Notes under the pieces: generated by a model
Database searches by the model: none
Told to the model about the DNA's origin: nothing
Seen by the model: the letters and a program-made list of their open reading frames with translations, nothing else
Shown: positions 2,489 to 31,079 of the stretch, piece by piece
Layout of the letters: the number at the start of each line of letters is the position of its first letter
Position numbering within the stretch: the stretch's first letter is position 1
Translations under genes and position numbers: made by a program
Assembly: GCA_965368225.1 (NCBI GenBank)
Contig: CBDUMF010000002.1
Location: 1-32,831, forward strand
Origin: an uncultured Elusimicrobia bacterium
Lineage (GTDB): Bacteria > Elusimicrobiota > Elusimicrobia > Elusimicrobiales > UBA9959
Length of the DNA stretch: 32,831 nucleotides
Reading direction: 5' to 3'

Positions 2489-2597
2489 TTCTCAATTTTG
2501 ACTCCATGAGTTTTTTGCTCAAAGGTATCCTCAACGCCCAACCTGATTTAAAAACGCTCACCTTTTTTTCATACACCATTTGCGCTTGCCTGTCTTA

Positions 2598-2723
2598 TCA
2601 CCGCCTTTTCTTCTTGCCAGGCGGCAGGGTTATCTCAAACTTTTCCCAACCGGGAAGATAAACAACCTTGCGCACTTCCCTTCGCGCAAAATCCTCACTC
2701 AAGGGTTCAAAATAAACCTGCAT
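2598..2723 (-). CDS. Hypothetical small protein, 41 aa from the ATG. The open frame continues upstream to 2834, in frame with the TGA of the preceding rSAM gene
   Basis: My own translation of the 346-nt gap. 78 consecutive sense codons (2834..2601) follow TGA 2835-2837 and end at TGA 2598-2600. The only ATG is at 2723, preceded by GAGGG. It falls below the 60-aa cutoff of the ORF track. Confidence 0.3.
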   Translation of the reverse strand: MQVYFEPLSEDFARREVRKVVYLPGWEKFEITLPPGKKKRR

Positions 2724-2834
2724 AAAACCCTCATCCCTTTCACCAAAAAGACCGGAGAAGACTGGTTTATAAATATGAATTTTATAGTCGCCATTGACAA
2801 TTATTCTATCTAACCTGCCACCGGTAAAGTGCGC

Positions 2835-4013: not shown

Positions 4014-5050
4014 TGGCAGGTTAACCCCCGGTTTTTTCGCAATTCGATATTGTGAACTTCGCAAAACGCCCTGCATGTTATTGCGCTTTTTATAAGAGAC
4101 ATGTATTCTTTTCTCATAACTTTGGCCAGTTTTTTGTGGGACGCAATGGCGCTGCGCAACCTTTCACCGCTTAACTTCATACAATAATGGAAATAAGCGA
4201 AGGCCCCGGCGGAACACAACAAGCTTCTCACCCCGGCTCCATACCTTCGAGCAACAGAAAAAAAAGAGTGCCTTTTTTCCGCGTCAATCCGTAAACTAAG
4301 AAATTTTTTCATACCCGTTTTATCTGCGGAAACGGCTTTATCACAAGGAATAAAATGCCCGCTGGGAAGCAGAATAATATTCGGGCAATAACGAGGATTA
4401 TAATCCTTGTCGAGGCATTCAAAAATCAGCTCGTATACATTTCCCATCTCATATACTTTGCCCCCGCCTCTGATAATTTCAAAATACCACTTTCTGATTT
4501 TCATCATTTCCCGCTGAATAATCCTGATGTCGGCATCGGGCCATATTTCTGTTATGTCAGGAGTCCACATAATATGCCTGAAGCCGAAATTGTATATCTC
4601 TTTCACGAGTCTTGAAACCTCGCCTATTTTCTCCCTGGTTGCCACAAACGAAGCTGTGGCTCCACGCCTGGCAGATTCCCTGAAAATTTTTCTTATCTCC
4701 TTCACTTCAAAAAAATTAAATTGATTGAGACTTAAAACAATCTTGATTCTTTTATCCTGTGCAAAAGCGGCAAAATCCTTCGTCAATTTCATTCCGTTGG
4801 TAAAGATATGAATCGGACAACTGCTTTTGCGTCGTACATGTTGCACAATAGAGACAAGAAGTTTTTTATGAAGTAGCGGCTCGCCGCCCAGGAAAGTTAT
4901 TTTGGCATCTCTGCCGTAAAGTTCCAAAAATCTATTAACCGCATAGAGCGCACTTTTCCTGCTCAGAACAACAGAGGTCCCGGAATTTCTAATATAACAG
5001 TACGGACATCTTAAATTGCAGATATAACTCATATAAATGACAAGATTCAT
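4010..5050 (-). CDS. Radical SAM enzyme, anSME-like N-terminus with a partial SPASM/twitch motif
   Basis: CNLRCPYC 11 residues from the Met, GGEPLL, and CPNIILLPSGHFIPC (C..Gx4C). There is no full CxxCx5Cx3C. ATGA overlaps occur at both ends. Confidence 0.8.
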   Translation of the reverse strand: MNLVIYMSYICNLRCPYCYIRNSGTSVVLSRKSALYAVNRFLELYGRDAKITFLGGEPLLHKKLLVSIVQHVRRKSSCPIHIFTNGMKLTKDFAAFAQDKRIKIVLSLNQFNFFEVKEIRKIFRESARRGATASFVATREKIGEVSRLVKEIYNFGFRHIMWTPDITEIWPDADIRIIQREMMKIRKWYFEIIRGGGKVYEMGNVYELIFECLDKDYNPRYCPNIILLPSGHFIPCDKAVSADKTGMKKFLSLRIDAEKRHSFFSVARRYGAGVRSLLCSAGAFAYFHYCMKLSGERLRSAIASHKKLAKVMRKEYMSLIKSAITCRAFCEVHNIELRKNRGLTCQ

Positions 5051-5973
5051 TTTATTGCCTTAAGTTCTCCGTCCCCGTAATGTTTAAGATACTCCGTCCA
5101 TATTCCCTCGCAGATATTGAAAAGGCGACAGCCGAAACATCTAGGCGTTTTCCTTCTTGAAACCATCTGCCTTGAAATCACCGCATCTGTATTTTTGAAA
5201 TCAGGCGCCCAGTGTTGCGTAAAAAACAGCACTCTTTCATTTATATCGCTTATATGGCTTAAATGGCGGTGGAAATAACACAGCGGCACATATCTCACCT
5301 TCCAACGAGGAAAACCGTTTCTATCTCCCACATTAAGGACCTTTCTCATATATAGCGCACATTCGGAAATTTTCGGCACCAGATTTTCAAAACAATCATG
5401 CGCTCCGCCATACGTCGGGTCAACAAAGATAAATTCCACATTTTTAATTCCATACTTTATGTAAAGACGACCTATTTCAGGAAGGTAGCGCATATTGCTT
5501 TTTACAACAGTAGTGTTTCCGTTTATATTCTTAAATCCTAACTTTCTCAAATTCTCTATGCCTTTGACCAATTCGGAGAAACTGCCCGGAACCCGCGTAA
5601 GACGATCGTGAACTTCGCAGTTGTGCCCGTGGATGGAAAAAATGATTCCGTCTATGCCGGCTTCCACTATCTGGCGGGCAAATCTTATATCTGAAAAAAT
5701 CCTGCCGTTAGTCGAGGTTAAAACTTCATTTATACCCAACTTTTTGGCCGTTCTTACCACGCAGGCAAAATCCCTTCTTATCGTAGACTCCCCCCCTATG
5801 ATTTCCACTATATCGGCTTTTTCTTTCTTCGCCTTGTAAAGTTCCCTCACTATCTCGGAAGTGGTTTTTTCCGGAAAATCCCTTTTCCTGGAATCAATGC
5901 AAAAAACGCACTTATTGTTGCATTTATATCCGGTGAATATCACTATCTTTTTCAATCTCGTTGGAGCATTCAT
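5047..5973 (-). CDS. Radical SAM enzyme, small paralog family
   Basis: CNNKCVFC and C-terminal CFGCRLFNICEGIWTEYLKHYGDGELKAI. ATGA overlap with the upstream membrane-protein gene. Confidence 0.85.
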   Translation of the reverse strand: MNAPTRLKKIVIFTGYKCNNKCVFCIDSRKRDFPEKTTSEIVRELYKAKKEKADIVEIIGGESTIRRDFACVVRTAKKLGINEVLTSTNGRIFSDIRFARQIVEAGIDGIIFSIHGHNCEVHDRLTRVPGSFSELVKGIENLRKLGFKNINGNTTVVKSNMRYLPEIGRLYIKYGIKNVEFIFVDPTYGGAHDCFENLVPKISECALYMRKVLNVGDRNGFPRWKVRYVPLCYFHRHLSHISDINERVLFFTQHWAPDFKNTDAVISRQMVSRRKTPRCFGCRLFNICEGIWTEYLKHYGDGELKAIK

Positions 5974-7133
5974 AAAATTCCAGTAAGACGAAGAATATCT
6001 TTATTAAAAAGCAACATCAGCAAAACGCCGGCGAATATCCACAACGCAAAGGGTCTGCCCTTTATCACTTCTATCTTTGGGTCCTTGACATTAAGCCGTG
6101 AAAGCCAGTCTTTGAGCAAATCAATATGCTCCTTGCAAAAGCCATCCCTGAAAACATCGTCAAACGCGCCTTGAAAAACCGGGTTCTGCTTCAATAAAAG
6201 AAGTGTGGAAGTTGAAGGTATCATACCAGGCCCTAGTTCGTCCTTTCCCACGAAATAGGCGTCTTTTTTCTCCATTATAAACTCTATCATAAACCTTCCG
6301 ACAAAAAGAATGACGCTAAACTTAAAGACGTTTACGACAGCACCTGTTAAATAATTTAAAAGACGGTATGGAAAGAAGAAGTATCCACATATGAAATAGA
6401 TTAAATAAACAATACCGGAAAAGTAAAGCCATTTACGGCTTCTGAAAATTCCACCTATTCTGTCCCACAGAAAGAACAAGAAAAAAAATATTAAATCCGT
6501 CCTCTTCATAACATGTTCCAGGAAGCCCTTAAATTCCATCACGAAAATCTGATGAAATAGAAACAACATGGAAAGATTGACCGCGCAGGCCAAAAACGCA
6601 AATCTTTTTTTTCCGCCGGCCCTGGCAAGGGCAGTGAACCTCTCCTTTATTCCATTCCATTCCTCGCTAAAAAAATCCGACGGTCCAACGCGATTTATTC
6701 CTTCAGAAATATAATTGATAACGGCATAAACAGACGCCACCACAAATATATTTATCAAAACGCTTAAAAACAGGTAGCCGGGAAAAGTTTTAATAAAAGG
6801 ATTTATCAGCGGGAGTGATAACGAGCACAATATGAAAAATTTAGCATCCCCTGCCGGCCAAATCTCTCCGTACCACAAAACAACAGCGGCAATCACCGTC
6901 AGGGCAAAATGCTGAAGGAAAAGAACATAGAAAATCGGGTTCAGAAAATCCGAAACTCTGCCGTTTAAGCCGAGATAGGTGTTGACGCCTGACAGAAGCA
7001 TGGCGGCTATAAAAATCCTGGCTCCAAGCACCGTTCTTTTGTTAAATATTTTCCTGAATTCAAAATCCTCCTTGACCACGGCTACACACCATCCCAGAAA
7101 AAAAATCAAATAAGTCAGGGATATATATTTCAC
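5970..7133 (-). CDS. Polytopic membrane protein (~10 TM) with A24 prepilin-peptidase/CpaA-like aspartate motifs
   Basis: 387-aa hydrophobic ORF. D23 lies in KEDFEFRKIFN (compare the D-x5-I-P-N of the CpaA/TadV/FlaK type). D96 lies in WPAGDAKFF (compare G-x-G-D-x-K-L/F). GTG start forms a GTGA overlap with the upstream stop. Confidence 0.55.
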   Translation of the reverse strand: MKYISLTYLIFFLGWCVAVVKEDFEFRKIFNKRTVLGARIFIAAMLLSGVNTYLGLNGRVSDFLNPIFYVLFLQHFALTVIAAVVLWYGEIWPAGDAKFFILCSLSLPLINPFIKTFPGYLFLSVLINIFVVASVYAVINYISEGINRVGPSDFFSEEWNGIKERFTALARAGGKKRFAFLACAVNLSMLFLFHQIFVMEFKGFLEHVMKRTDLIFFFLFFLWDRIGGIFRSRKWLYFSGIVYLIYFICGYFFFPYRLLNYLTGAVVNVFKFSVILFVGRFMIEFIMEKKDAYFVGKDELGPGMIPSTSTLLLLKQNPVFQGAFDDVFRDGFCKEHIDLLKDWLSRLNVKDPKIEVIKGRPFALWIFAGVLLMLLFNKDILRLTGIL

Positions 7134-8020
7134 TTTGAGACCGCCTTGATCTCCGCGTCCCCGAAGAATTTATAATATTCTCTCATAAGACCCAGACAAT
7201 TTTTTCTTAACACGCATCCCCGGCATTTTTTCGTATAAATTCTTTCCTCTTTCGGCAAAGTAACCCAGGCATACCTGCGCAACACTGGAGGAAGAACGCA
7301 CAGAGGAAAATGATAAAGGCGAAATTCTTTAAACCGCTTTATGAAATTCAGATTTTTCATTATCGCAAAAGAAGAGTCTTCGAACCTGAGCGCTATTTTT
7401 TGACGGTTTTCAAAAGAGATGCCCTCTATTTCGTAATGTATCACCACCACTCTGTAGTCGCGGGCAGCAGCCAGTTTTTTCAGAAGCATTTTTACCAGGT
7501 CTCCGAAATCGGATATATTCTGTTTTATGAGGACTACTCTTATTTCCGTTTTTTGACCCCGGGAAAAGCGGAAGATATTTTTCAGGCCCTCCAGCGTTCT
7601 ATGAAAACTGCCTTTCGCTCCGCTTATCCTGTCATGCTTTGCCGCAGTTGAACCATGGATTGAAACTGCTATTTCAAAGGGAGGATTAGCTATGGCGAAA
7701 AATTTTTTTGCAAATTCTTGGTCAGCGAATTTTTTTCCGTTGGTTAAAAGGGTAACCTGAACATCTGGAACCCTTTTTCTAAGGTATGCAACAAATTTTA
7801 AAAAATCCGGATGAAGAGTGGGCTCTCCTCCGGTCAAACTTATATAGGAAGATTTATCAGCATTTTTATGGTAAACATCTTCCCCTTTCAGGTATTTCTC
7901 GAATTTCTTTATCTGCCATTTTAGCGAATACTGCCGGGGGTTTTGCAAAACGAACGAGCGCATATTGGTGCACATTATGCATTTATTATCGCATTTATTC
8001 CAAACGGCTATATCCGGCAT
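7130..8020 (-). CDS. Radical SAM enzyme, small paralog family
   Basis: CDNKCIMC and C-terminal CRGCVLRKNCLGLMREYYKFFGDAEIKAV. The track start at 8104 is a TTG overlapping the upstream gene by 71 nt. ATG 8020 (MPDIAVWNKCDNKC) gives the N-terminal length seen in the paralogs. Start is uncertain. Confidence 0.75.
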   Translation of the reverse strand: MPDIAVWNKCDNKCIMCTNMRSFVLQNPRQYSLKWQIKKFEKYLKGEDVYHKNADKSSYISLTGGEPTLHPDFLKFVAYLRKRVPDVQVTLLTNGKKFADQEFAKKFFAIANPPFEIAVSIHGSTAAKHDRISGAKGSFHRTLEGLKNIFRFSRGQKTEIRVVLIKQNISDFGDLVKMLLKKLAAARDYRVVVIHYEIEGISFENRQKIALRFEDSSFAIMKNLNFIKRFKEFRLYHFPLCVLPPVLRRYAWVTLPKEERIYTKKCRGCVLRKNCLGLMREYYKFFGDAEIKAVSK

Positions 8021-8033
8021 AGTCAGGCCAAAA

Positions 8034-9497
8034 TCAAAATTTCTCTCTGCTCTTTCTTCTTTCAGCGATACCTTCGCCCCCTGTTGACTCAAACCATGAT
8101 TCAAAAATTTTTCTATTTTTGCGGTCCTGGAGTCTTTCCGTCAAAACCTTAAAAATCCCCTTTTGCACACCACACCAATAGGAATTCCTCAAATTCCCCC
8201 ACGGAGTTTTTTGCTCCTCGTAATTATGAACCGGGCACACCCCGCAAAAAGGCTTGAAAGCACACCTGAAGCATTCGGGCTGATTCTCCAGACAGGAGGT
8301 TATTACGCACAGCTTTGAGGGGGCGCTTGCGACTACATCCGCATAAGAATGGTCCCTCACATTCCCCAACCTAAAGGAAAAATCCCTGCGGGCGCCCACC
8401 ATTCTTCCCTCATCGCAGGTGTAAACATCCCCATTCCAATTATAGGCAATCTGTCCTATAGCAGCTCCGCAGGGAGAACGCAAATCAAGATAATTCGGAT
8501 CTCTTCCAAAAAGCATTTTTTGAAGAATAATCGCCGCTGTTCGCTCGATAAATTTTTCGCCCCTTGAATTTATTTTCAGGCAATAATCCAACGCCCTTTT
8601 ATAAAAGAAAACAAAATCCTCTGCTCTATATCCAATTCTGGAGAAAACCTGCTTAGCGTATCCCACAGGGGAAAGGGGTCTTATAAAAATACCCCCCAAA
8701 CCCAGAGCACGATATTCATCTACTATCTCCCGGGGATAATCCAGCGAATATTTGGTCGTAGTCATCAAGGCAGAAGGCAGAGAGTCTTTTCTTCCCCTGT
8801 TCTTTTCGGAATAATCTGCGAAACGCTTCAGCCAGTTAACCGTAATATCGTAGGAGGAGCCACCGAAGTAAATTCTATTTCTATTGTGAACTTCTCTCGG
8901 TCCGTCAAGGGAGGTGCATACCGAAATCCGATTTTTATTGAGAAATTCAAACTTTCTTTCATCTAACAAGGTAAAATTGGTAACGACCGAAATTTCAAGA
9001 TTCTTGCCAAGACTTCGGTTCTTTCTCAAGGCGTAGTCAACCGTTTTTTTAAGCGTCCGCCAGTTTATCAGGGATTCTCCTCCCTGAAATTCTATGGTGA
9101 TATTTTTGTTTGGGGAGGACAAAGCCATGTCAACACATTTTCTGGCAGTTTCTTCGTTCATATCTGTATTTTTGAAATCCGCTCCCAGAGCACGGCAGTA
9201 AACGCAACGGTGATTGCATTTAAGGGTGAGAACAAAAATGTGAAGAGACGGCCCGTTTTCTCCAGGAGGATTTAAATCTTTAACCGCTGAAACTGCTTTT
9301 CCAAAATCGAGATGGGTTGAGAAAAAACCTTTCTTTTTCAGCTTGCGGGCTAAAGACGGTTTTTTATCAAATTTCCCGTTTTTGACCAAATCAAATTCCG
9401 AGGGTTCCAAAATCATCCAATTTCCAAAATCGTTGGAAATGAAAACCCCTTTTTCGGTCTTTTCAAAATTAAAATTTAAAAGTTTGTCTCTTTGCAT
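8034..9497 (-). CDS. Radical SAM/SPASM peptide maturase, HxsB-like (anSME type)
   Basis: CNHRCVYC. Full SPASM cysteine set: CGAAIGQIAYNWNGDVYTC, CFRCAFKPFCGVC and a final WCG. Collinear paralog of 12685-14097 and 19657-21099. Confidence 0.8.
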   Translation of the reverse strand: MQRDKLLNFNFEKTEKGVFISNDFGNWMILEPSEFDLVKNGKFDKKPSLARKLKKKGFFSTHLDFGKAVSAVKDLNPPGENGPSLHIFVLTLKCNHRCVYCRALGADFKNTDMNEETARKCVDMALSSPNKNITIEFQGGESLINWRTLKKTVDYALRKNRSLGKNLEISVVTNFTLLDERKFEFLNKNRISVCTSLDGPREVHNRNRIYFGGSSYDITVNWLKRFADYSEKNRGRKDSLPSALMTTTKYSLDYPREIVDEYRALGLGGIFIRPLSPVGYAKQVFSRIGYRAEDFVFFYKRALDYCLKINSRGEKFIERTAAIILQKMLFGRDPNYLDLRSPCGAAIGQIAYNWNGDVYTCDEGRMVGARRDFSFRLGNVRDHSYADVVASAPSKLCVITSCLENQPECFRCAFKPFCGVCPVHNYEEQKTPWGNLRNSYWCGVQKGIFKVLTERLQDRKNRKIFESWFESTGGEGIAERRKSREKF

Positions 9498-11766
9498 TGT
9501 TTTTTAATATCGGTCTTATCTCTCCTGAGCCGAACGTTTTCAAATAATCAGATGCCGCGCCCGCGCAATTAAGCAAAAACCTGCATTCATACTCAAAACT
9601 CATCTTGACCAGTTCATCCCCATACTGCGATTCGCGGGCATCTCCCCTGTCTTCGGGCAGAAGAACATCTGCAGCCATATCATGCTCTGGATAAAGAAAG
9701 CAAAGCGGTATATTCAATGTTTTTATGGATACATCCCCGGAAAGCGCCAAAGAAGCTTTTTTCACCGCTCTGGCGGCGGCTGTGTATGTAACGCGTAAAC
9801 TGCGTTTATTTTGAGAGTTTTTTTCAAAATTACCCGTATAGCGGGGAAACCACAAAATAAATTTTTTCACTTGATACTCGCCGAAATATCTTATCGTTGC
9901 AGTCAGAGTGTTTAAATTCAGACCCGTAAGAACGACAACCACGGTAAGGTCAATCCCCGCTTTTTTAAGATTTTCCAGCGCTTTTAAAGAAAGAGGCAAT
10001 TGCCTGCCCGTGCCAAAAAGTTCGGCATTTATCCTGTAATCGCGACTCGCCGTTTTCAGAAAAACAGAATTCAAACCAGCATTTTTAAGGAAGAGAAGGT
10101 AGTTATGATCGGCCAGCTTCATTCCGTTGGTAAGAATGGTTCTCTGAATAAACCCACTTCTTTTCGCCAACTTCAGAAAAAACCCGAGGTCCGCAGAAAC
10201 CGTCGGTTCGCCGCCCGCGAAAAGTATATTGTTAAAAAATTTTTTCGCCCGACACATATTTAGCGCCGCAACATTTCTGTTCAAAATGCCGCCCCTGTAA
10301 GAATTGGGGCAAAACAAGCAATTCAGGTTGCACCGTCCGCCGAACTGAAATTCATAAACGCTTGCTGAAAGACGATTGAAAAGAGGATTTGAAACAACGG
10401 GGAACTTTTTCTGCGCGCTTGATTTAATCTGAGAACGATATTTCCTTTCAAGAACCTTAGTTGTCCTGGCTTCAAAAAACTCTTTTTTTATCTCAAAAGC
10501 AGCTTCCTCCCTTTGCAGGACGGCATACGCCGGGCCGATGTCGGAGAGTATTTTCTTCCGTGAAAGATTCTTAATCTCTTTTCCAAAAACGGACTCAATA
10601 TTTTTCCCGAAGCGCGTTCTGAAATCTTTTTTGGGAATTCTTCCCCGGTGAAGCGTCTCAAGCAACACAAAGTTTATCATTTCGTCTTTCATGCTCAAAC
10701 CAACAAACTTTTCAATAGGATACTTTCCGCGTAAAAGCGCTTGCTCATATTTATACTCATCGCAGATATTCTGATATCTTGCCTCTCGTACGGCGTATGA
10801 AACCGCGCTGGGCCCGAGTCCCAAAATGGAATAGGATCCTTCTTCGCCCTGGTCATAACTGTATGGCCATTGATTGCCTTTCCTCTTATAGACCCAATGC
10901 CCACAGCGCATGATATATCCCGAAGAGGTAAGAATTTCAAGAGCCCTTCTTCTAAACCTCCGCGCCTCCTCCTTCGCCGCGCCGGATAAGGAGCCTTTCT
11001 TTTCCTCAAAAGCGCACTGATATCTTGGCTGAAAATCGAATATATAAATCCTTTCCAGATCCAGTTCCGCTATTTTTTTCACGTCTGCGATAAAACTTTC
11101 ATAGCCCTGATGCGGCAGACCGCACATTAAGTCCGCCTCAACCTGCTTTATGCCGATTTTCTTTGCCTTCTTCAAAATTTCAAGAGCGCGCTCTCCGTTC
11201 TGCACCCGATTATGCCTTTTCATCAATTTATCGTCAAGACTCTGAATTCCGACTGCAAGCCAGTGAACATTATTTTTCTTCAGCGTTCTAAGTTTCTCTT
11301 CTGTAAGTGTGGAGGGACTGGCTTCAAAAGCGATTTTGGTCCCAGAGGAAATATTGAAATTGGCCCTCGCAATTTTAAAAAACTCATCCAGGTCTTCAGT
11401 ATTCATAAGGCTTGGAGTGCCTCCTCCAACGCAAAAGTACCTTATTTTCCTCCCCCTGAAAGCGGATTTCATTAAACGCGCCTCCATCTCATATGCGCGC
11501 AGGAAATTTTTTATCTCTTTCCTTAAGCAGGGGACTTTCTTGTAAAACCCGCAGAAAGAGCATTCGCTCGGGCAAAAGGGGAAATGCACATACACGACAG
11601 GCTCGTTCGAATGCTTTTTGAGCGACCTGTTCCACAATTTCGTCAAATCAACGCCCTCGTTAAATCTTCCCCACGCCGCCATCGGAGGATAATTTGGCGG
11701 AAACTCGGGCAAAGTGTCGGCATCGCATTTTGAAAATAATTCCCTTAAAACTTCGTCTTTTATCAT
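9469..11766 (-). CDS. Fusion protein with two radical SAM domains: N-terminal HemN-like (class C rSAM methyltransferase/coproporphyrinogen-dehydrogenase-like) plus C-terminal small-paralog-family rSAM
   Basis: First cluster motif CPSECSFC with GGGTPS and a HemN_C-like segment (MKDEMINFVLLETLHRG...). Second motif CNLNCLFC with GGEPT and C-terminal CRFLLNCAG..DYLKTFGSGEIRPI. I chose the start at ATG 11766 (MIKDEVL..PPNYPPMAAW, which aligns with the N-terminus of 16586-17941), 1 nt after the upstream stop. Confidence 0.8.
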   Translation of the reverse strand: MIKDEVLRELFSKCDADTLPEFPPNYPPMAAWGRFNEGVDLTKLWNRSLKKHSNEPVVYVHFPFCPSECSFCGFYKKVPCLRKEIKNFLRAYEMEARLMKSAFRGRKIRYFCVGGGTPSLMNTEDLDEFFKIARANFNISSGTKIAFEASPSTLTEEKLRTLKKNNVHWLAVGIQSLDDKLMKRHNRVQNGERALEILKKAKKIGIKQVEADLMCGLPHQGYESFIADVKKIAELDLERIYIFDFQPRYQCAFEEKKGSLSGAAKEEARRFRRRALEILTSSGYIMRCGHWVYKRKGNQWPYSYDQGEEGSYSILGLGPSAVSYAVREARYQNICDEYKYEQALLRGKYPIEKFVGLSMKDEMINFVLLETLHRGRIPKKDFRTRFGKNIESVFGKEIKNLSRKKILSDIGPAYAVLQREEAAFEIKKEFFEARTTKVLERKYRSQIKSSAQKKFPVVSNPLFNRLSASVYEFQFGGRCNLNCLFCPNSYRGGILNRNVAALNMCRAKKFFNNILFAGGEPTVSADLGFFLKLAKRSGFIQRTILTNGMKLADHNYLLFLKNAGLNSVFLKTASRDYRINAELFGTGRQLPLSLKALENLKKAGIDLTVVVVLTGLNLNTLTATIRYFGEYQVKKFILWFPRYTGNFEKNSQNKRSLRVTYTAAARAVKKASLALSGDVSIKTLNIPLCFLYPEHDMAADVLLPEDRGDARESQYGDELVKMSFEYECRFLLNCAGAASDYLKTFGSGEIRPILKNNAKRQTFKF

Positions 11767-11767
11767 A

Positions 11768-12667
11768 TCACCCGCTTTTAACCGGCTTAAATTCCGACCA
11801 GCCGTAAATTTGCGGATATTCCCGCCACGGCCCCTCGCAAACATTAAAATAAGCGCATTTAGTGCACTTTTTGTGCTTGACCTTTCCCTCACTCCTGCGA
11901 TAATCCCCATAATTTTCCACATATACGTTCGCATCGACCACGGGCCCTTCAGGAATTATTCTCTCGGCCACGCACTGCTCATATCCCTTCATAAAACAAT
12001 AAGGAATGGCTTCCGTAAAACATAAAGTTTTGTTCCCAACACCTATGTCAAGTGCCCTGCGCACGTAGGGCATTATTTCGCTTTTCCTTGGAACTATCCA
12101 TTTTCTGTTTTTAAAAGCGGTCCCTATAATGTGAACAAACGCTAATTGAAACTGATCCACTTTAAGATACACAAGCAATTTGGCGAGTTCCGGAAGGTCC
12201 TTGTAATTGGCTGAAGTTATAACTGTATTCGTCAAAACATACATACCGAGCTTTTTACAATTCATTATCCCCTTCACCACCTGAGCGAAACTTCCCCTGG
12301 AATGCGTGAGACTTTCATGTATCTTGGCCCTTGAACCATGAAGAGAAGGCCCCATTTCGTTCACTCCGGCTTTCTTCAACTTAAGGCAATAATCGTAATA
12401 GGCAAACCTCCTTCCGTTTGTCTGAACCTGAATACTGGAAAAGCCCAATTTCTTTGCCTCTTTCACCGCTTCGATAAGATTCGGATGCAGAGTCGGTTCT
12501 CCACCGGTAAACACGACTCCGTTTATTTTTTTTGCTGCAGCGTCCTTTAAAATCTTTTTTATTTCCGAAAGTGGCCTGCGCTTTATTATGGAACGTTTGT
12601 CTCCCTGAGCGCAAAAATCGCAGCGATTATTGCAGTCAAATCCTATTTTAACATCTATTCTCTTCAT
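11768..12667 (-). CDS. Radical SAM enzyme, small paralog family
   Basis: CNNRCDFC and C-terminal CTKCAYFNVCEGPWREYPQIYGWSEFKPV. ATG 12667 is preferred over GTG 12724, which would overlap the upstream gene by 40 nt. Confidence 0.8.
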   Translation of the reverse strand: MKRIDVKIGFDCNNRCDFCAQGDKRSIIKRRPLSEIKKILKDAAAKKINGVVFTGGEPTLHPNLIEAVKEAKKLGFSSIQVQTNGRRFAYYDYCLKLKKAGVNEMGPSLHGSRAKIHESLTHSRGSFAQVVKGIMNCKKLGMYVLTNTVITSANYKDLPELAKLLVYLKVDQFQLAFVHIIGTAFKNRKWIVPRKSEIMPYVRRALDIGVGNKTLCFTEAIPYCFMKGYEQCVAERIIPEGPVVDANVYVENYGDYRRSEGKVKHKKCTKCAYFNVCEGPWREYPQIYGWSEFKPVKSG

Positions 12668-12684
12668 TGTCGAATTATACCGAA

Positions 12685-14097
12685 TCAAGATTCGTGAAGC
12701 GAAAGCCACTTTTTGAATATCCACATCGTTTCTCTGCTGTCAAGTTTTCGGCACAGCAATTTGAAAATTCCTCTGTAAATTTTACATCTGTCGTTCACAA
12801 TCATATTCCCCCAGAATGAATTCTGTGAGGACAGGTTCAACGCCGGCATTGCGTGGCAATAGGGATTCCAGGCACATCTGGAACACCTCACCTGATTAAG
12901 AAAATTGAAATTACTCAGAAGAAGAAGTTTGGAAAGCGGCCTGTTCAAGATGTCCTTGAAGGAATCTCTTTCAACACTGCCCAATTTAAGAGTTTCTTCA
13001 CCTGAGTTGGCGATCATTCTCGCTTCGTCACTTCCATATATTCCTCCATCCCAATTATACGCCAGACGCATGAGTAAATCTAAATTATGATATCTCGGGC
13101 GCTGGTAATTAAGCATATGACTGAGAAACAAAAAGGCACCTTTTTCATAAACGCCTATGCCTTTTTTATTGAGGGAAATAATATAATCCAGGGCCCTTTC
13201 GTAAAAAGACAAAAATTCCTCCGGCAAGTAACCGACTTTGTTCCAATGCGTTTTGGCCCTGCCGGTTTTATCCAGAGGTCCTACCTGAATTCGCACCAGA
13301 CCAAGGCGAAGATATTCATCCACTATTTCTTTGGGATAATTAAGCGAAAATCTGCTTATCGTGCATATTGCGTTCGGTTTTTCAAATTTCTTTTTAATGG
13401 CAAGAGCATTTATCCGTCCCAGCCATCTGACCGCTGCTTCGTAAGACGAACCTTTCAAGAGTTTTCTGTTAAGGTCGTGAATGAATTTAGGACCATCAAG
13501 CGAAGAGCAGACGACAACCCTGTTTGCCAACAGGAATTTTAAAATTTTCCCATCCATGACGGAGAGATTGCTTACTATGGAAAAACTTAACTCCTTTCCC
13601 TCCTTCTCACCGCGCTTCTTTGCCTTTTCAACTATATATTTCACAGCTCTAAAATTCAAGAGCGGTTCCCCTCCCTGAAACTCTATCATTATTTTCTTGT
13701 TCGGGACTGAAAAGATAAAATCAAGGGTTTTCCTGGCTGTTTCCAACGTCATGTCGCTTTCAAGCGGGCGAAACGGTCCGGCCGAGGCTCCGCAATAAGA
13801 ACAAAACGAATTGCATCTCTTTGTAACGCTGATTATATGAACATGAGGTCCTTTCCAGTCCATGAAAAAATTTCGCCGTAAACATTTCGCCGCCCTATCC
13901 ATGTCCAGATAGTCGGAAAAAAACATTCCTTTTTTCAAGCATTGTTTTGCTTTTTCTCCAACACTTTCGCCATTCACAAAAGACCTGAAATCCACACTGC
14001 TCAAAGAACAATTGAAGGAAAAAATGTTAGAGATAAAATATCTCTCTCTTATCTTCGCGAAATTAAAATCCATGGGTTTGGCGGGCGTTTTTTTCAT
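12685..14097 (-). CDS. Radical SAM enzyme, HxsB-like paralog with a degenerate SPASM domain
   Basis: CNSFCSYC. Collinear with the other two HxsB-like proteins but lacks the CGAA Cys, has YGSDEAR in place of YTCDEGR, and has CSRCAWNPYCHAM in place of C..C.....CGVC. ATGA overlap with the upstream gene. Confidence 0.8.
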   Translation of the reverse strand: MKKTPAKPMDFNFAKIRERYFISNIFSFNCSLSSVDFRSFVNGESVGEKAKQCLKKGMFFSDYLDMDRAAKCLRRNFFMDWKGPHVHIISVTKRCNSFCSYCGASAGPFRPLESDMTLETARKTLDFIFSVPNKKIMIEFQGGEPLLNFRAVKYIVEKAKKRGEKEGKELSFSIVSNLSVMDGKILKFLLANRVVVCSSLDGPKFIHDLNRKLLKGSSYEAAVRWLGRINALAIKKKFEKPNAICTISRFSLNYPKEIVDEYLRLGLVRIQVGPLDKTGRAKTHWNKVGYLPEEFLSFYERALDYIISLNKKGIGVYEKGAFLFLSHMLNYQRPRYHNLDLLMRLAYNWDGGIYGSDEARMIANSGEETLKLGSVERDSFKDILNRPLSKLLLLSNFNFLNQVRCSRCAWNPYCHAMPALNLSSQNSFWGNMIVNDRCKIYRGIFKLLCRKLDSRETMWIFKKWLSLHES

Positions 14098-15185
14098 GTG
14101 TAACCCTCCGCAAAAAGTTTGGCAAGATACTTCAGGTAACTCCTGAACCTCTCATGGGTATGCGATAGATGAAGGATTCGGGCAACGGCATTTTTGGCAA
14201 TCTCAGTTCTCCTGCTGTAGGCAATAGAACCTTCTTTTAGAGCCGGTAAAACATAATATTCTGCGGCACACTTTTGACAGCGCCTTGAATCCCGGCGCGG
14301 AAGACAGGCGTTAAATCTGTCTATTATCCCGCTTTCAGCAGAACCAATTGAAACTTTTCTTCTCTCCTCCATATTCGCCACAAAAGCATAGGGATAAAAT
14401 GCGAAAGTTCCGTCCGGATAGAGTTCAAGGTCCCTCAAAAAAGGACAAAAGGCGTTCGGATATTCTCTCTCTCTGAAAAATTCAAGGAAGGGTTCAAAGA
14501 GAATAAACTCGTTATTCTCGACCATCTGAAAGACGTCTCTCACAATCTCTTCCAGGTTTGCGGAAAAATTCTCGTAATCCTCCCTCCGCCACCTGAAGCC
14601 ATGAACGCATTCCAGGCCGATATTCCTGAAACCAATTCTCAAAAGTTCCCTGAAGTCCTCGTGCATACGGGTGGCCTGTTGTGGATGAACGCAGAAAATC
14701 ACATGGGCCCTTTCGCCCAATTCAGAGAGAATAAGCGAAATTTTAGGCATGAGAAGATTGTATGAACCCTGCCCGCCGGGAAGCTTTCGGGTAAAATCCT
14801 GAGTAGCAGAACTTCCCGAAAAACTTACGGAAAACCTTATATCATTTGCAGCTATATATTTCAGATGTCTTTTCTCGACCAGAAGTCCGTTTGAAGCAAT
14901 AGAAACTGAAAGTTGCTTTTTTCTTTTCGCGGCGATTTTTCTTGCCTCCTCTATTATTTTCGCGGATAAATCAAATGCAAGCATGGGTTCGCCGCCATAT
15001 ATTTCAAGGATTTTCTTTTCGCCGGGAGAGCCTATAAAAAAATCAAGTGACTTTTTTGCCTTCTCAAAAGGGATTCTCATATTCTCGCTCTTGTCGATGA
15101 AGCAATGAACGCATCTCAGGCAACAATCCGACGTAACAGCTATCTTGAATTTGTTTATCTCCTTGTTGAAAGTTGTTCTTTTCAT
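14094..15185 (-). CDS. Radical SAM enzyme, anSME-like N-terminus; possible HxsC-type partner of the adjacent HxsB-like gene
   Basis: CCLRCVHC (Cx3Cx2C counted from the first Cys), GGEPML, and a C-terminal CLPRRDSRRCQKC cluster. The HxsC assignment is only positional. Confidence 0.75.
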   Translation of the reverse strand: MKRTTFNKEINKFKIAVTSDCCLRCVHCFIDKSENMRIPFEKAKKSLDFFIGSPGEKKILEIYGGEPMLAFDLSAKIIEEARKIAAKRKKQLSVSIASNGLLVEKRHLKYIAANDIRFSVSFSGSSATQDFTRKLPGGQGSYNLLMPKISLILSELGERAHVIFCVHPQQATRMHEDFRELLRIGFRNIGLECVHGFRWRREDYENFSANLEEIVRDVFQMVENNEFILFEPFLEFFREREYPNAFCPFLRDLELYPDGTFAFYPYAFVANMEERRKVSIGSAESGIIDRFNACLPRRDSRRCQKCAAEYYVLPALKEGSIAYSRRTEIAKNAVARILHLSHTHERFRSYLKYLAKLFAEGYT

Positions 15186-15188
15186 AAT

Positions 15189-16256
15189 TTAGAAAATGGT
15201 TTTTACAACATTCTTCCTACGCTTTTTAATGGGCACAAACTCCGAAGTGCCGAAAATCTCTACATATTCCCTGTCTATTCCGCGACAAACCTTGCCAACA
15301 GAGCATCTCCGGCAAACAGGCAGCTTGACAGTCTGCTTGTTTTTCATAGTTGCCATATTTACCGTCTTGCCGTCCGGAAGAAGAAGGGGGTCCCCACTTT
15401 CCTCGTCCAGTTCCCAATCAGCAATAATATCCATGCAATCAGGAAAAAGGCAGGGCGGAAAATTGACAAGCATCCTTGAAAACGCAGGCATTTTATACTC
15501 GGTTAAGAGCTTAAGTCCTTCATACACTTTAGCTGCGGCCCTGGAAATGGAGATTTTGAGGGACTGAAGATTTTTGCTCATCATTCCGCGGTAATGAGCA
15601 TAAATTATGTTATAGTAATTGATACCAAGGTTCAAATAAGCCATCCTGAAAAACTCCGGAAAATTCCTGTAATTTAAGGCATTTAACACTTGATTGGTTC
15701 CGACTTCCTGTCCCATCTCCCTCACATTTTCAATCGCTCTCATCACTTTTTTAAAGGCTCCCTTTTTGTTTACAAGTTTGTCGTGGACCATTGAATTGTG
15801 TCCGTGTATGGAAATGTCAAACATATTGAAGCCACTTTCAGCAAGATGGCGAACATATGACTTATCAGAAAGTTTGAGCCCGTTAGTGCAGATTTTTACG
15901 CATTCATAACCCGCCTTTCTGGCAAAAGTCGCAATCTTGCCTATATCCTTTCTTAAACTCGGCTCCCCCCCTATAATAGCGGCTATCCAGGAGCCTTTTT
16001 TCCTACCTTCATACAGCGTTCTGTAAATCAGATTTATCTCGGGCTCGGGAAAAGCCCCGAAATCCTCAGGAGCGTTATAGCAAAACAAACATCTATTATT
16101 ACATGAGGAATTAACTGTAACCTCGCACACCCTGGCTTTCCTGTTTATCGGCCACTGAATATTTTTTACTCTTTCGCGAATGAAACTTTCGTCAGCTGAT
16201 GGGAATTTGCGCTTCAAATATTCATAATTTCTTTGGGAAACTGGCAAGACGGGCAT
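15189..16256 (-). CDS. Radical SAM enzyme, small paralog family; first gene of the long operon
   Basis: CNNRCLFC, GGEPS, and C-terminal CRRCSVGKVCRGIDREYVEIFGTSEFVPI. ATG 16256 is preceded by GAGG plus a 5-nt spacer. Confidence 0.85.
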   Translation of the reverse strand: MPVLPVSQRNYEYLKRKFPSADESFIRERVKNIQWPINRKARVCEVTVNSSCNNRCLFCYNAPEDFGAFPEPEINLIYRTLYEGRKKGSWIAAIIGGEPSLRKDIGKIATFARKAGYECVKICTNGLKLSDKSYVRHLAESGFNMFDISIHGHNSMVHDKLVNKKGAFKKVMRAIENVREMGQEVGTNQVLNALNYRNFPEFFRMAYLNLGINYYNIIYAHYRGMMSKNLQSLKISISRAAAKVYEGLKLLTEYKMPAFSRMLVNFPPCLFPDCMDIIADWELDEESGDPLLLPDGKTVNMATMKNKQTVKLPVCRRCSVGKVCRGIDREYVEIFGTSEFVPIKKRRKNVVKTIF

Positions 16257-16348
16257 AAAAACCTCTGTATGGCGGGAAAGTTTTGTTTTGGTAAAACAGT
16301 TCTCCCGGAAAGCATTCTAAAAAACCAGATTTATTCTGCAAATAACGT

Positions 16349-16372
16349 CTTGTATTCACATCGTGAATACAA
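16349..16372. promoter_or_regulatory. 10-bp-arm inverted repeat TTGTATTCAC-ATC-GTGAATACAA in the divergent intergenic region; candidate operator
   Basis: Read directly; coordinates +/-2 nt. It lies just upstream (minus-strand sense) of a weak candidate promoter, TTGCAG-16-TAGAAT, at about 16340..16313. Two ATTGCAAAGT direct repeats follow at about 16387-16411. Confidence 0.4.
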
Positions 16373-23746: not shown

Positions 23747-23849
23747 TATTTTCGTTCAACCTTTTCTAATTGTAGCAAAAATCCGCGCAGATTTAACTTG
23801 CACGTAAAAAAATTGGTATGATAAGTTTAGATTAGAAAGGAGAAACAAT

Positions 23850-27817: not shown

Positions 27818-27837
27818 TTTTTTGTACAATTACTAAT

Positions 27838-29755: not shown

Positions 29756-29758
29756 AGA

Positions 29759-31062: not shown

Positions 31063-31079
31063 CTCTGGATGAAAACATT

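What the first reader, a model, noticed from the sequence alone, without database searches (positions are those of the whole stretch)
9469..11766. Natural fusion of a HemN-like rSAM to a second complete rSAM domain, plus a free-standing HemN-like paralog
- One polypeptide carries CPSECSFC...GGGTPS...HemN_C-like (aa ~1-470) and then CNLNCLFC...GGEPT...C-terminal family motif. Two complete rSAM active sites in one chain is rare.
- A stand-alone HemN-like paralog (16586-17941) with a matching N-terminus (YPP(M/F)A(A/S)W) is transcribed divergently.
- HemN-like enzymes include the class C rSAM methyltransferases used in RiPP and natural-product pathways, such as NosN, TbtI and ChuW.
- C-methylation or methylene-bridge chemistry on His imidazoles or Ser is therefore a reasonable but unproven possibility.
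Basis: partly seen in the sequence, partly recalled or inferred. Interest (0 to 1): 0.65.

Follow-up and report, generated by a model that had tools for sequence, protein, structure and literature searches.

The report
Fused HemN-like/HxsC-like double radical-SAM enzyme
One gene in a large peptide-modifying gene cluster of an uncultured Elusimicrobiota bacterium joins two different radical-SAM enzymes into a single protein; the fusion is real and conserved in relatives, but the second half looks like a decaying or helper module, not a guaranteed second active site.

Summary
Window 9469-11766 (-) is one uninterrupted 765-aa gene.
- Residues 1-447 are a HemN-like radical SAM (rSAM) domain.
- Residues 448-469 are a linker.
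- Residues 470-765 are a complete HxsC-like rSAM protein.

It is not an assembly artefact. About 38 homologue clusters of 690-800 aa share the architecture. Among species-representative genomes, all full-length matches are Elusimicrobiota MAGs. The gene sits in a ~20 kb His-Xaa-Ser (Hxs) cluster that is orthologous gene for gene in two of three related loci examined. AlphaFold gives a confident two-domain model (pLDDT 84.9): domain 1 matches HemN and domain 2 matches rSAM barrels.

"Two complete active sites" is only partly supported.
- Domain 1's Fe-S and dual-SAM residues are invariant across the family.
- Domain 2's CX3CX2C/GGEP is lost in 22 of 36 relatives, in at least three clades, and shrinks to a Cys-rich tail in others.
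- Domain 2 is the fastest-evolving part (32% vs 52% identity).
- The window copy keeps CX3CX2C/GGEP but lacks two His and one Cys that are invariant in relatives with an intact domain 2.

Best reading: domain 1 is a class-C-like C1-transfer catalyst, tethered to an HxsC-derived docking or Fe-S module that acts on the HxsA repeat peptide. The chemistry is untested. This is a new variant of known kinds, of moderate interest.

The parts
9469..11766 (-). Fusion gene, 765 aa plus stop (9469-9471). HemN-like domain, linker, then HxsC-like domain.
   Evidence: Uninterrupted ORF. Start supported by the homologue alignment. About 38 fused homologue clusters. AF2 model pLDDT 84.9, pTM 0.82.
10426..11766 (-). 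Domain 1 (aa 1-447): HemN-like rSAM core plus HemN_C-like region. Contains CPSECSFC (11551-11574), GGGTPS (11410-11427) and the family-invariant WPYSYDQGE (10843-10869).
   Evidence: NCBIfam hits to STM4012, HemN and ChuW, all below cut-off. PDB HemN 1olt E 2.5e-30 and NocN 9p2u E 1.5e-22. Foldseek 1olt TM 0.80 over 440 columns. Motifs invariant in 36 of 36 family members.
10360..10425 (-). Interdomain linker (aa 448-469). Low-confidence and poorly conserved.
   Evidence: pLDDT below 50 at residues 451-457. Variable length and sequence in the alignment. Logan contigs from runs X2 and X3 span it without indels.
9472..10359 (-). Domain 2 (aa 470-765): complete HxsC-like rSAM protein. Contains CNLNCLFC (10309-10332), GGEPT (10201-10215), a deviant beta4 motif LKTAS (10045-10059), and a C-terminal PLC...GDARES...ExxCx5C tail (9559-9711).
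   Evidence: hhalign against the window's HxsC-like paralogues: probability 100%, E 1.6e-44, 281 columns end to end. BLASTP 24-26% identity over about 300 aa. NCBIfam best hit HxsC4, 69 bits against a cut-off of 500. Foldseek matches 7tol, viperin and MoaA. Substitutions H573A, H580N and C725E relative to all 13 intact relatives.
16586..17941 (+). Stand-alone HemN-like paralogue (451 aa, CRSKCFFC, GGGSPS). Divergent from the operon start at 16256.
   Evidence: NCBIfam HemN 156 bits and STM4012 155 bits, both below cut-off. 29% identity to domain 1. Orthologues at 45-47% identity in L001 and L004. Similar about-450-aa ORFs lie near the fusion in L006, L010, L011 and L018.
17944..18228 (-). HxsA-like precursor (94 aa), the likely substrate. 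Seven His-Xaa-Ser repeats (HVSHQSHGSHGSHGSHGSHGSH), C-terminal ARGGWC.
   Evidence: Six-frame repeat scan. Weak HxsA3 and HxsA4 hits, E 4e-6, below cut-off. 56% identical orthologue in L001.
19370..21520 (-). HxsD-like (21071-21520), HxsB (19657-21099), HxsD-like (19370-19675): core Hxs maturation module.
   Evidence: HxsB TIGR03978 488 bits, above the cut-off of 370. The two small proteins are 47% and 53% identical to L001 proteins that carry precomputed PF27806:HxsD hits.
1646..16256 (-). Operon that carries the fusion. It has 11 rSAM genes (12 rSAM domains): HxsB x2, HxsC-like x6, PapB-like x2 and the fusion, plus a conserved polytopic membrane protein (5970-7133).
   Evidence: NCBIfam and Pfam scans. 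Gene-for-gene orthology with L001 and L004 at 33-71% identity.

Best explanation
**What it is (shown)**
- The gene encodes a genuine, vertically conserved, lineage-restricted (Elusimicrobiota) fusion protein of an expanded His-Xaa-Ser (Hxs) maturation cluster.

**Domain 1 (inferred function)**
- Domain 1 is the conserved catalyst.
- It is a HemN-like rSAM domain with a [4Fe-4S]-binding CX3CX2C and the residues that hold two SAM molecules.
- It most likely generates a SAM-derived methylene radical, as class C rSAM methylases (NosN/NocN, TbtI, ChuW) do. It would then transfer a C1 unit to an sp2 carbon, most plausibly a His imidazole of the HxS repeats of the 94-aa HxsA-like peptide encoded nearby.

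**Domain 2 (inferred function)**
- Domain 2 is a whole HxsC-like rSAM protein welded to the C-terminus.
- Its family-wide conserved feature is the HxsC-type Cys-rich C-terminal tail (probably an auxiliary Fe-S site), not the rSAM site.
- Its main job is inferred to be tethering the HemN-like catalyst to the HxsA/HxsD substrate complex and/or relaying electrons. In the characterised HXS system, HxsC is the HxsD-binding subunit.
- In this window domain 2 still has CX3CX2C and GGEP, so a residual second radical activity is possible. It has nevertheless lost two His and one Cys that all intact relatives keep.

**Status of each step**
- Shown: the fusion, the folds, the conservation pattern and the genomic context.
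- Inferred: substrate, C1 chemistry and docking role.
For: **The fusion is real**
- Uninterrupted ORF.
- About 38 homologue clusters of 690-800 aa at 33-45% identity over 96-99% of the query, and about 18 representatives at 50% clustering.
- Full-length matches only in Elusimicrobiota MAGs among 185,579 species genomes.
- BamA in the window is 58-71% identical to Elusimicrobia BamA.
- Logan contigs cover the junction without indels.

**Folds**
- AF2 pLDDT 84.9, pTM 0.82.
- Domain 1 matches HemN 1olt (TM 0.80). Domain 2 matches GDGT-MAS, viperin and MoaA barrels.

**Domain 1 as catalyst**
- CX3CX2C and GGGTP are invariant in 36 of 36 members.
- Y59, E148, R187 and D212 align to HemN Y56, E145, R184 and D209, and to NocN Y34, R171 and D196. 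These residues bind SAM-I and SAM-II.
- Class C enzymes attack sp2 carbons (PMC10114718).

**Domain 2 as an HxsC-derived, decaying module**
- hhalign gives 100% probability, end to end, against the HxsC-like paralogues.
- The rSAM motif is lost in 22 of 36 relatives, in at least 3 clades of the domain-1 tree.
- In L014-L017 and L019 the domain is reduced to about 150 aa that keep only PPC...CxxCx5CPG.
- Against L001, domain 2 is 32% identical and domain 1 is 52%. Most other stand-alone orthologues are 42-71% identical; only Pap_4010, at 33%, is as low.
- A relative with a degenerate domain 2 (P0014) still gives a confident two-domain model.
- The window differs from all 13 intact relatives at H573, H580 and C725.

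**Context**
- The cluster holds the HxsA-like peptide, three HxsB above cut-off, two HxsD-like proteins and six HxsC-like proteins. It is orthologous gene for gene in L001 and L004.
- HxsC binds HxsD, and HxsB/C/D install a +8 Da (+C, -4H) modification on an HxS motif in E. coli (PMC13128918).
Against: - No biochemical data exist for any family member. Substrate assignment rests on gene neighbourhood only.
- The canonical HXS system achieves its +C/-4H modification without any HemN-like protein, so a HemN-like C1 donor is not required for HxS chemistry.
- Domain 1 scores below the curated cut-off of every NCBIfam HemN-type family, including the ChuW/HutW methyltransferases. It replaces HemN's HRNFQGY segment with WPYSYDQ, so its chemistry could differ from all known HemN-like enzymes.
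- In the window, domain 2's CX3CX2C and GGEP are intact, and its closest relative P0002 is also intact. A second active site therefore cannot be excluded here.
- No PAE or coordinates were available, so the predicted domain-domain geometry is unverified.
- A distant, independent HemN-like plus HxsC/MoaA-like fusion (P0226) sits outside any Hxs cluster. This architecture is therefore not intrinsically tied to HxsA.
Confidence: 0.5

Rival explanations
1. This is the first reader's reading: a true double enzyme. Both rSAM sites in this window's protein are active and carry out two consecutive radical steps on the same HxS motif without releasing the peptide. For example, domain 2 does HxsC-type H-abstraction or cross-linking and domain 1 inserts a C1 unit.
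For: - CX3CX2C and GGEP of domain 2 are intact here and in 13 relatives, including the closest one, P0002.
- Domain 2 folds as an rSAM barrel.
- pTM 0.82 suggests a defined two-domain assembly.
- Fusions of HemN-like with HxsC-like domains recur: P0165 is a triple fusion, and P0153 and P0223 also combine them. That hints at functional coupling.
Against: - Domain 2's site was lost repeatedly in relatives whose clusters are otherwise orthologous, so it is not essential to the family's function.
- The window's domain 2 uniquely lacks H573, H580 and C725.
- Domain 2 is the fastest-diverging part.
Confidence: 0.3
2. Domain 1 is not a C1 transferase. It may act like HemN itself, with the SAM-methylene radical used only for H-abstraction, for example oxidative decarboxylation or dehydrogenation of the peptide C-terminus. 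Or it may act like HemW, as a non-catalytic cofactor- or heme-binding chaperone for the cluster's many Fe-S enzymes.
For: - HemN is the best structural and sequence match in the PDB.
- HemN-like proteins are functionally diverse and include chaperones (PMC10114718).
- NCBIfam HemW gives E 7e-37, 127 bits.
Against: - All HemN and HemW models score below their cut-offs.
- HemN Cys71 is absent and the HRNFQGY segment is replaced.
- The gene is embedded in and co-conserved with a peptide-maturation operon, not with heme genes.
- The cluster ligands and dual-SAM residues are invariant, which argues for catalysis.
Confidence: 0.14
3. The cluster, and with it the fusion, makes or modifies a small-molecule cofactor, not the HxsA peptide. 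A tetrapyrrole is one candidate, as proposed for the rSAM-rich loci next to nitrogenase paralogues in groundwater Elusimicrobia.
For: - Meheust et al. (bioRxiv 10.1101/765248) describe up to 13 rSAM genes, some with HemN_C, near NifHDK paralogues in Elusimicrobia. They suggest a tetrapyrrole substrate.
- A distant HemN-like plus HxsC/MoaA-like fusion occurs outside Hxs clusters.
Against: - No Nif-like gene was seen. None of the window ORFs scanned matched one, and none is listed within +/-10 kb in L001, L003 or L004.
- Three HxsB score above the curated cut-off, and an HxsA-like repeat peptide and HxsD homologues are present and conserved.
Confidence: 0.05
4. The fusion is an artefact: a misassembly, or a lost stop or frameshift that joins two adjacent genes.
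For: - Read support in public runs is thin (2-4x Logan contigs).
- The database gene call for this protein starts at M99 (P0001, 667 aa).
Against: - Dozens of independent assemblies from different studies encode the same full-length architecture.
- Contigs from two runs cover the linker with no indels.
- AF2 models the linker between two well-packed domains.
Confidence: 0.01

Closest known systems
HemN (CgdH, PDB 1OLT) and class C radical SAM methylases (NosN/NocN 9P2U, TbtI, ChuW/HutW)
   Same: - Domain 1 has the HemN fold (Foldseek TM 0.80 over 440 columns).
- It has CX3CX2C and GGGTP.
- It has the conserved Tyr, Glu, Arg and Asp that bind SAM-I and SAM-II.
- It has a HemN_C-like C-terminal subdomain.
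   Different: - It scores below every curated family cut-off (HemN 156/325, ChuW 137/400, HemW 127/205, STM4012 171/380).
- HemN Cys71 is Phe.
- HemN's HRNFQGY segment is replaced by the family-invariant WPYSYDQ.
- It carries a whole second rSAM protein at its C-terminus.
- Its presumed substrate is a His-Xaa-Ser repeat peptide, not a tetrapyrrole, thiazole or indole.
HxsC of the HXS antiphage system (HxsD-HxsB-HxsC-HxsA; Li et al., Nat Commun 2026, PMC13128918) and NCBIfam HxsC / HxsC4
   Same: - Domain 2 is homologous end to end to the HxsC-like proteins of the window, including the C-terminal Cys-rich tail.
- Its best NCBIfam hits are HxsC4 and HxsC.
- It sits with HxsA-like, HxsB and HxsD-like genes.
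   Different: - It scores far below cut-off (69/500 and 45/268).
- It is fused to a HemN-like enzyme.
- The host cluster has 14 rSAM domains instead of 2.
- The HxsA-like peptide is 94 aa with no identified peptidoglycan-binding domain (only weak HxsA3/HxsA4 matches in NCBIfam).
- The cluster appears chromosomal, syntenic and lineage-wide in Elusimicrobiota. The canonical system is a 4-gene, mostly gammaproteobacterial defence cassette.
- The window's domain 2 lacks one Cys of the tail and two conserved His.
GDGT-MAS / Tes (PDB 7TOL), MoaA and viperin rSAM barrels
   Same: They are the best structural neighbours of domain 2 (7tol: 28% identity, rmsd 3.0 A over 221 columns). NCBIfam Tes and MoaA hits give E 1e-18 to 1e-10.
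   Different: The similarity is only to the generic rSAM core. None of the substrate-binding or extra-cluster domains of those enzymes is present. The genomic context is unrelated.
Other multi-rSAM-domain proteins
   Same: Each has more than one rSAM domain in one chain. P0165 (HxsC4-like + HemN-like + HxsC-like) and P0153 (2x HemN-like + HxsC-like) combine the same two families.
   Different: They have different domain order and number and only 23-27% identity to the query. P0226 lies outside any Hxs cluster. None is characterised.

Membership tests
Radical SAM superfamily (both domains) | CX3CX2C [4Fe-4S] motif plus a GGE-type SAM motif on a partial (beta/alpha)6 barrel. | tested here: met
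   Pfam PF04055 gives two stretches, E 1.5e-44. Motifs lie at aa 65-72 and 114-119, and at aa 479-486 and 518-522. The AF2 model shows beta/alpha alternation in both halves, and Foldseek matches rSAM structures.
HemN-like subfamily / class C rSAM methylases (domain 1) | HemN fold with a HemN_C-type C-terminal subdomain. | tested here: met
   Foldseek 1olt E 7.6e-27, TMt 0.80, 440 columns. phmmer against 1olt gives 2.5e-30 and against NocN 1.5e-22.
HemN-like subfamily / class C rSAM methylases (domain 1) | Residues for simultaneous binding of two SAM molecules (HemN Y56/E145/R184/D209; NocN Y34/R171/D196). | tested here: met
   Y59, E148, R187 and D212 align to them (roles from PMC12871812). 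They are invariant or at least 90% conserved in 36 family members. Actual binding of two SAMs was not tested.
HemN-like subfamily / class C rSAM methylases (domain 1) | C1 transfer from SAM to an sp2 carbon with SAH release. | not testable with these tools
   This needs an enzyme assay (5'-dA, SAH, CD3-SAM labelling).
Bona fide coproporphyrinogen III dehydrogenase HemN/CgdH (TIGR00538) | Score above the curated cut-off; fourth Cys (HemN C71); RNFQGY segment. | tested here: not met
   156.4 bits against a cut-off of 324.95. Position 74 is Phe, and WPYSYDQ replaces HRNFQGY.
ChuW/HutW (TIGR04107), HemW (TIGR00539), STM4012 family (NF006067) | Score above the curated equivalog cut-off. | tested here: not met
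   136.7/400, 127.4/205.4 and 171.2/380.
HxsC (TIGR03977) / HxsC4 (NF038332) (domain 2) | Score above the curated cut-off. | tested here: not met
   45.1/267.9 and 69.4/500 for domain 2 alone.
HxsC (TIGR03977) / HxsC4 (NF038332) (domain 2) | Full-length homology to HxsC-type proteins, including the C-terminal PxC...CxxCx5C tail. | tested here: inconclusive
   The homology is end to end (hhalign probability 100%, E 1.6e-44). The tail, however, has Glu at the first Cys of CxxC (E725), unlike all 35 relatives.
HxsC (TIGR03977) / HxsC4 (NF038332) (domain 2) | Genomic association with HxsA, HxsB and HxsD. | tested here: met
   Three HxsB score above cut-off. An HxsA-like repeat peptide is present. 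HxsD-like proteins are present, identified by homology to PF27806-annotated proteins.
Canonical HXS antiphage system (PMC13128918) | Four-gene hxsD-B-C-A cassette, with HxsA carrying a peptidoglycan-binding domain and about 5 HxS repeats. | tested here: not met
   The cluster is about 20 kb with 14 rSAM domains. HxsA-like is 94 aa with 7 repeats, and NCBIfam gave only weak HxsA3/HxsA4 hits. The paper reports that 99.8% of systems are 4-gene and 99.7% are in Pseudomonadota.
Canonical HXS antiphage system (PMC13128918) | Confers phage resistance. | not testable with these tools
   No cultured host. This needs heterologous expression and phage challenge.

The most novel reading that the evidence does not exclude
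The HemN-like::HxsC-like protein is a single-chain, two-site radical machine. One site (HxsC-type) activates the His-Xaa-Ser motif. The other (HemN/class-C-type) delivers a SAM-derived carbon and builds a carbon-bridged His-Ser cross-link on a ribosomal peptide. That would supply a mechanistic template for the unexplained +8 Da (+C, -4H) modification of the HXS antiphage effector. It would also show, within one family, an rSAM catalytic domain decaying stepwise into a non-catalytic Fe-S/docking module.
Probability: 0.22. Interest if true: 0.8.

Novelty: new variant of a known kind. Interest (0 to 1): 0.55.

Why it matters
**Link to open Hxs chemistry**
- The chemistry of His-Xaa-Ser systems is still unsolved. 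The only experimental study (2026) found a +C/-4H modification, could not reconstitute it and did not identify the carbon source.
- An Hxs-type cluster that has recruited two HemN-like enzymes, the family known for SAM-derived C1 transfer to aromatic carbons, points to a concrete, testable route for carbon insertion at His. One of those enzymes is physically welded to an HxsC module.

**Natural series of domain decay**
- The family ranges from an intact domain 2, through a motif-dead one, to a truncated Cys-rich tail.
- This could show which part of HxsC is needed for substrate or HxsD recognition and which part for catalysis.

**Annotation**
- These proteins are currently labelled "coproporphyrinogen III oxidase family" or generic "radical SAM protein". 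For a peptide-maturation cluster that labelling looks wrong.

Tried and rejected
- **Assembly artefact.** Rejected on homologues, synteny and Logan contigs.
- **Alternative start at 11934.** Rejected. It overlaps the upstream gene by 167 nt, and the extension is absent from all homologues.
- **Public reads.** Only three low-depth DNA runs hold the sequence. No RNA runs were sought, so transcription is untested. Coverage of the gene is patchy.
- **Pfam scan for HxsD.** The local Pfam copy lacks PF27806, so the two small ORFs gave no hit. I used homology to annotated L001 proteins instead.
- **Context of distant relatives.** P0129 and P0165 sit on contigs too short to be informative. P0226 is in a non-Hxs neighbourhood. 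P0153 is flanked by other rSAM genes on a 9-kb contig.
- **Foldseek on the degenerate-domain-2 relative P0014.** The table does not say which domain each hit aligns to, so it cannot show that the dead domain 2 still resembles rSAM barrels. I use only the AF2 confidence and secondary structure.
- **Promoter scan of the 330-bp divergent intergenic region.** It found one weak sigma-70-like site on each strand, not above shuffles (4 found against 1.8 +/- 1.3). This gives no weight either way.
- **Nitrogenase-paralogue link (Meheust et al.).** No Nif-like gene was seen among the window ORFs scanned or in three related loci.
- **Literature search for multi-rSAM proteins.** No listed paper contained "two/tandem/dual radical SAM domains".

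Full report

The ORF listing shows one open frame at 9469..11934 on the minus strand (821 aa from the first ATG), with a single terminal stop. It lies one base after the stop of the upstream gene (TGAtATG). In an alignment with 19 homologues all N-termini line up with this Met, and the 56-residue upstream extension is unique to the window. I therefore accept 9469-11766.

The quoted motifs are present:
- CPSECSFC at aa 65-72 and GGGTPS at aa 114-119
- CNLNCLFC at aa 479-486 and GGEPT at aa 518-522
- a Cys-containing C-terminal tail at aa 687-736

Pfam reports two separate Radical_SAM stretches.

The stand-alone paralogue at 16586-17941 (+) is HemN-like. It has CRSKCFFC and is 29% identical to domain 1 over 465 aa, E 2e-51. 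It faces away from the minus-strand operon that starts at 16256.

**2. Is the fusion an artefact?**

No.
- A search of 5.8 billion proteins found about 38 clusters of 690-800-aa proteins that align over 96-99% of the query at 33-45% identity. Every one that carries an organism name comes from Elusimicrobia/Elusimicrobiota MAGs.
- An exhaustive HMMER scan of 1.84 billion 50%-identity representatives found about 18 fused representatives.
- In 185,579 species-representative genomes, full-length matches occur only in Elusimicrobiota MAGs.
- The window itself is Elusimicrobiota: its BamA is 58-71% identical to Elusimicrobia BamA.
- The sequence occurs in hydrothermal-vent metagenome runs. Logan contigs from two different runs span the linker (10198-10459) with no indels. 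Contigs from a third run cover the unusual codons discussed below, with no differences.
- AlphaFold2 with a 36-sequence alignment gives a confident model (pLDDT 84.9, pTM 0.82). It has a short low-confidence linker (451-457) between two well-ordered domains.

**3. What the two halves are.**

*Domain 1 (aa 1-447).*
- Foldseek matches E. coli HemN 1OLT (E 7.6e-27, TM 0.80 over 440 columns).
- By sequence it matches HemN (2.5e-30) and the class C methylase NocN (1.5e-22).
- NCBIfam places it nearest STM4012, HemN, ChuW/HutW and HemW, but below every curated cut-off. It is HemN-like without belonging to any named family.
- The HMMER alignments map Y59, E148, R187 and D212 onto HemN Y56, E145, R184 and D209, and onto NocN Y34, R171 and D196. 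The NocN structure paper identifies this Tyr as the SAM-II stacking residue conserved in HemN-like enzymes, the Arg as the SAM-I carboxylate partner, and the Asp as bridging both SAMs (PMC12871812). All are invariant or nearly so across the 36 family members.
- It differs from HemN in two ways. HemN Cys71 is Phe74, and HemN's HRNFQGY segment is replaced by WPYSYDQ, which is invariant in the family.

*Domain 2 (aa 470-765).*
- It is a complete HxsC-like protein, not a generic rSAM domain.
- It aligns at 24-26% identity over about 300 aa with the stand-alone HxsC-like proteins of the window.
- A profile-profile comparison gives 100% probability, E 1.6e-44, over 281 columns from end to end. That span includes the C-terminal PxC...GD.R.S...K..CxxCx5C.G tail.
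- Its best NCBIfam hits are HxsC4 (69 bits, cut-off 500) and HxsC (45 bits, cut-off 268).
- Structurally it matches rSAM barrels: GDGT-MAS 7TOL (rmsd 3.0 A over 221 columns), viperin and MoaA.

**4. Context.**

The window from about 1646 to 21520 is an expanded His-Xaa-Ser cluster. It contains:
- three HxsB above the TIGR03978 cut-off (8034-9497, 12685-14097, 19657-21099)
- six HxsC-like proteins and two PapB-like rSAM proteins
- the fusion and the stand-alone HemN-like paralogue
- two HxsD-like proteins
- a conserved polytopic membrane protein
- a 94-aa HxsA-like peptide with seven HxS repeats (HVSHQSHGSHGSHGSHGSHGSH...ARGGWC)
- an adjacent SufS

Every gene has a one-to-one orthologue, almost all in the same order, in two other Elusimicrobiota loci (L001, L004) at 33-71% identity. 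The paralogue is included, at 45-47%. Each paralogous rSAM gene has therefore kept a separate identity for a long time.

The only experimental work on Hxs systems is Li et al., Nat Commun 2026 (PMC13128918).
- The four-gene E. coli system is an antiphage defence.
- HxsB, HxsC and HxsD process HxsA and install a +8 Da (+C, -4H) modification on one SHRSS motif.
- HxsC binds HxsD.
- The chemistry could not be reconstituted.
- That canonical system has no HemN-like component and is 99.7% proteobacterial.

**5. The conservation pattern changes the interpretation.**

Across 36 fused family members, domain 1's CX3CX2C and GGGTP are invariant. Domain 2's CX3CX2C and GGEP survive in only 14 members. 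On a neighbour-joining tree of domain 1, the 22 degenerate members fall in at least three separate clades, so the site was lost repeatedly.

In five further MAGs (L014-L017, L019) the C-terminal extension has shrunk to about 150 aa. It retains only the PPC...CxxCx5CPG tail. That tail is the one feature of domain 2 conserved in every member.

A relative with a degenerate site (P0014) still yields a confident two-domain model with beta/alpha alternation (pLDDT 87.3).

Against the closest relative (L001), domain 1 is 52% identical and domain 2 only 32%. That is the lowest value in the cluster, alongside Pap_4010 at 33%.

The window's own domain 2 keeps the two classic motifs. It differs from all 13 intact relatives at three positions that are invariant in them:
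- H573 to Ala, the His of the S-x-H beta-strand motif that HxsC-like proteins share
- H580 to Asn
- C725 to Glu, the first Cys of the tail; Cys to Glu needs three base changes

Independent contigs confirm these bases. "Two complete active sites" is therefore true only at the level of the textbook motifs.

**6. Most likely mechanism.**

*Shown:* a conserved fusion of a HemN-like catalyst with an HxsC-derived module inside an HxsA/B/C/D cluster.

*Inferred:*
- Domain 1 uses two SAMs to make a SAM-methylene radical. Like class C methylases, which attack sp2 carbons (PMC10114718), it adds a C1 unit to an aromatic carbon. The obvious candidates are the His imidazoles of the HxS repeats.
- Domain 2 mainly tethers this catalyst to the HxsA/HxsD complex and/or carries an auxiliary Fe-S cluster for electron transfer. 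This would explain why its tail is conserved while its rSAM site decays.
- In this window a residual second radical activity cannot be excluded.

I put about 0.5 on this reading and about 0.3 on a genuinely bifunctional enzyme. Non-C1 or chaperone roles for domain 1 get about 0.14, a small-molecule or cofactor pathway about 0.05, and an artefact about 0.01.

**7. Novelty.**

Both parent families are known, and multi-rSAM fusions exist elsewhere. P0165, P0153, P0202 and P0252 are examples, and P0226 is an independent HemN-like plus HxsC/MoaA-like fusion outside Hxs clusters.

My searches found no paper that describes this fusion or HemN-like components of Hxs systems. NCBIfam has no model for it, and the sources name it generically.

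I rate it a new variant of known kinds, with interest about 0.55. It offers a testable handle on the unsolved carbon-insertion chemistry of HxS peptides and a natural series of rSAM-domain decay. Nothing about its function is yet demonstrated.

Noticed in passing
window 1646-21520: An unusually dense rSAM cluster: 14 rSAM domains in 13 proteins over about 20 kb (3 HxsB, 6 HxsC-like, 2 PapB-like, 1 fusion, 1 HemN-like), plus two HxsD-like proteins, an HxsA-like peptide and an adjacent SufS (413-1645). It is orthologous gene for gene with Elusimicrobiota loci L001 and L004. The canonical HXS system has only 4 genes.
   Followed up: partly
window 17944-18228 (-): HxsA-like 94-aa precursor with a basic N-terminus, a hydrophobic segment, seven HxS repeats and a conserved C-terminal ARGGWC. 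It is convergent with, and 2 nt from the stop of, the stand-alone HemN-like gene. The orthologue in L001 is 56% identical and has more repeats.
   Followed up: partly
window 5970-7133 (-): Conserved 387-aa polytopic membrane protein inside the operon. It carries a WPAGDAKFF motif, and its L003 orthologue (36% identity) has a weak Peptidase_A24 (prepilin peptidase) hit. It could be the leader or processing protease for HxsA.
   Followed up: partly
window 9469-11766; database protein P0001: The public gene call for this protein starts at Met99 (667 aa). That start is downstream of the first CX3CX2C motif, so the call would delete domain 1's Fe-S site. The homologue alignment supports the longer form.
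   Followed up: yes
proteins P0165, P0153, P0202, P0252: Other metagenomic multi-rSAM chains. P0165 is HxsC4-like + HemN-like + HxsC-like (1138 aa). P0153 is two HemN-like + HxsC-like (1181 aa, from a groundwater MAG, flanked by more rSAM genes). P0202 and P0252 are three HxsC-like domains in tandem.
   Followed up: partly
L086 10001-12103 (protein P0226): An independent 700-aa HemN-like + HxsC/MoaA-like fusion. It lies next to arginyl-tRNA synthetase and an MJ0043_C-domain gene, with no Hxs genes nearby. The architecture has therefore arisen outside Hxs clusters too.
   Followed up: no
L004 6494-7531: The relative with a motif-dead domain 2 carries an extra rSAM gene, a duplicate of the C_15189-type HxsC-like gene (37% identity), that the window lacks. 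In L004 the C_11768 orthologue also lies after the fusion, not before it. This may be compensation; it was not tested.
   Followed up: no
window 18212-19309 (-) and 21533-22330 (-): Two conserved cluster-associated proteins (365 aa, Cys-rich with a signal/TM-like N-terminus, and 265 aa) have no Pfam or NCBIfam match. ORFs of matching size and position, also without a Pfam hit, lie in L001 (366 aa next to hxsA; 257 aa upstream of the first hxsD-like gene); homology was not tested.
   Followed up: no
window 22442-32734: The right flank is ordinary housekeeping: PIN-PhoH, myo-inositol-1-phosphate synthase, BamA, Skp/OmpH and LpxD. The cluster is therefore chromosomal and not obviously on a mobile island.
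   Followed up: partly
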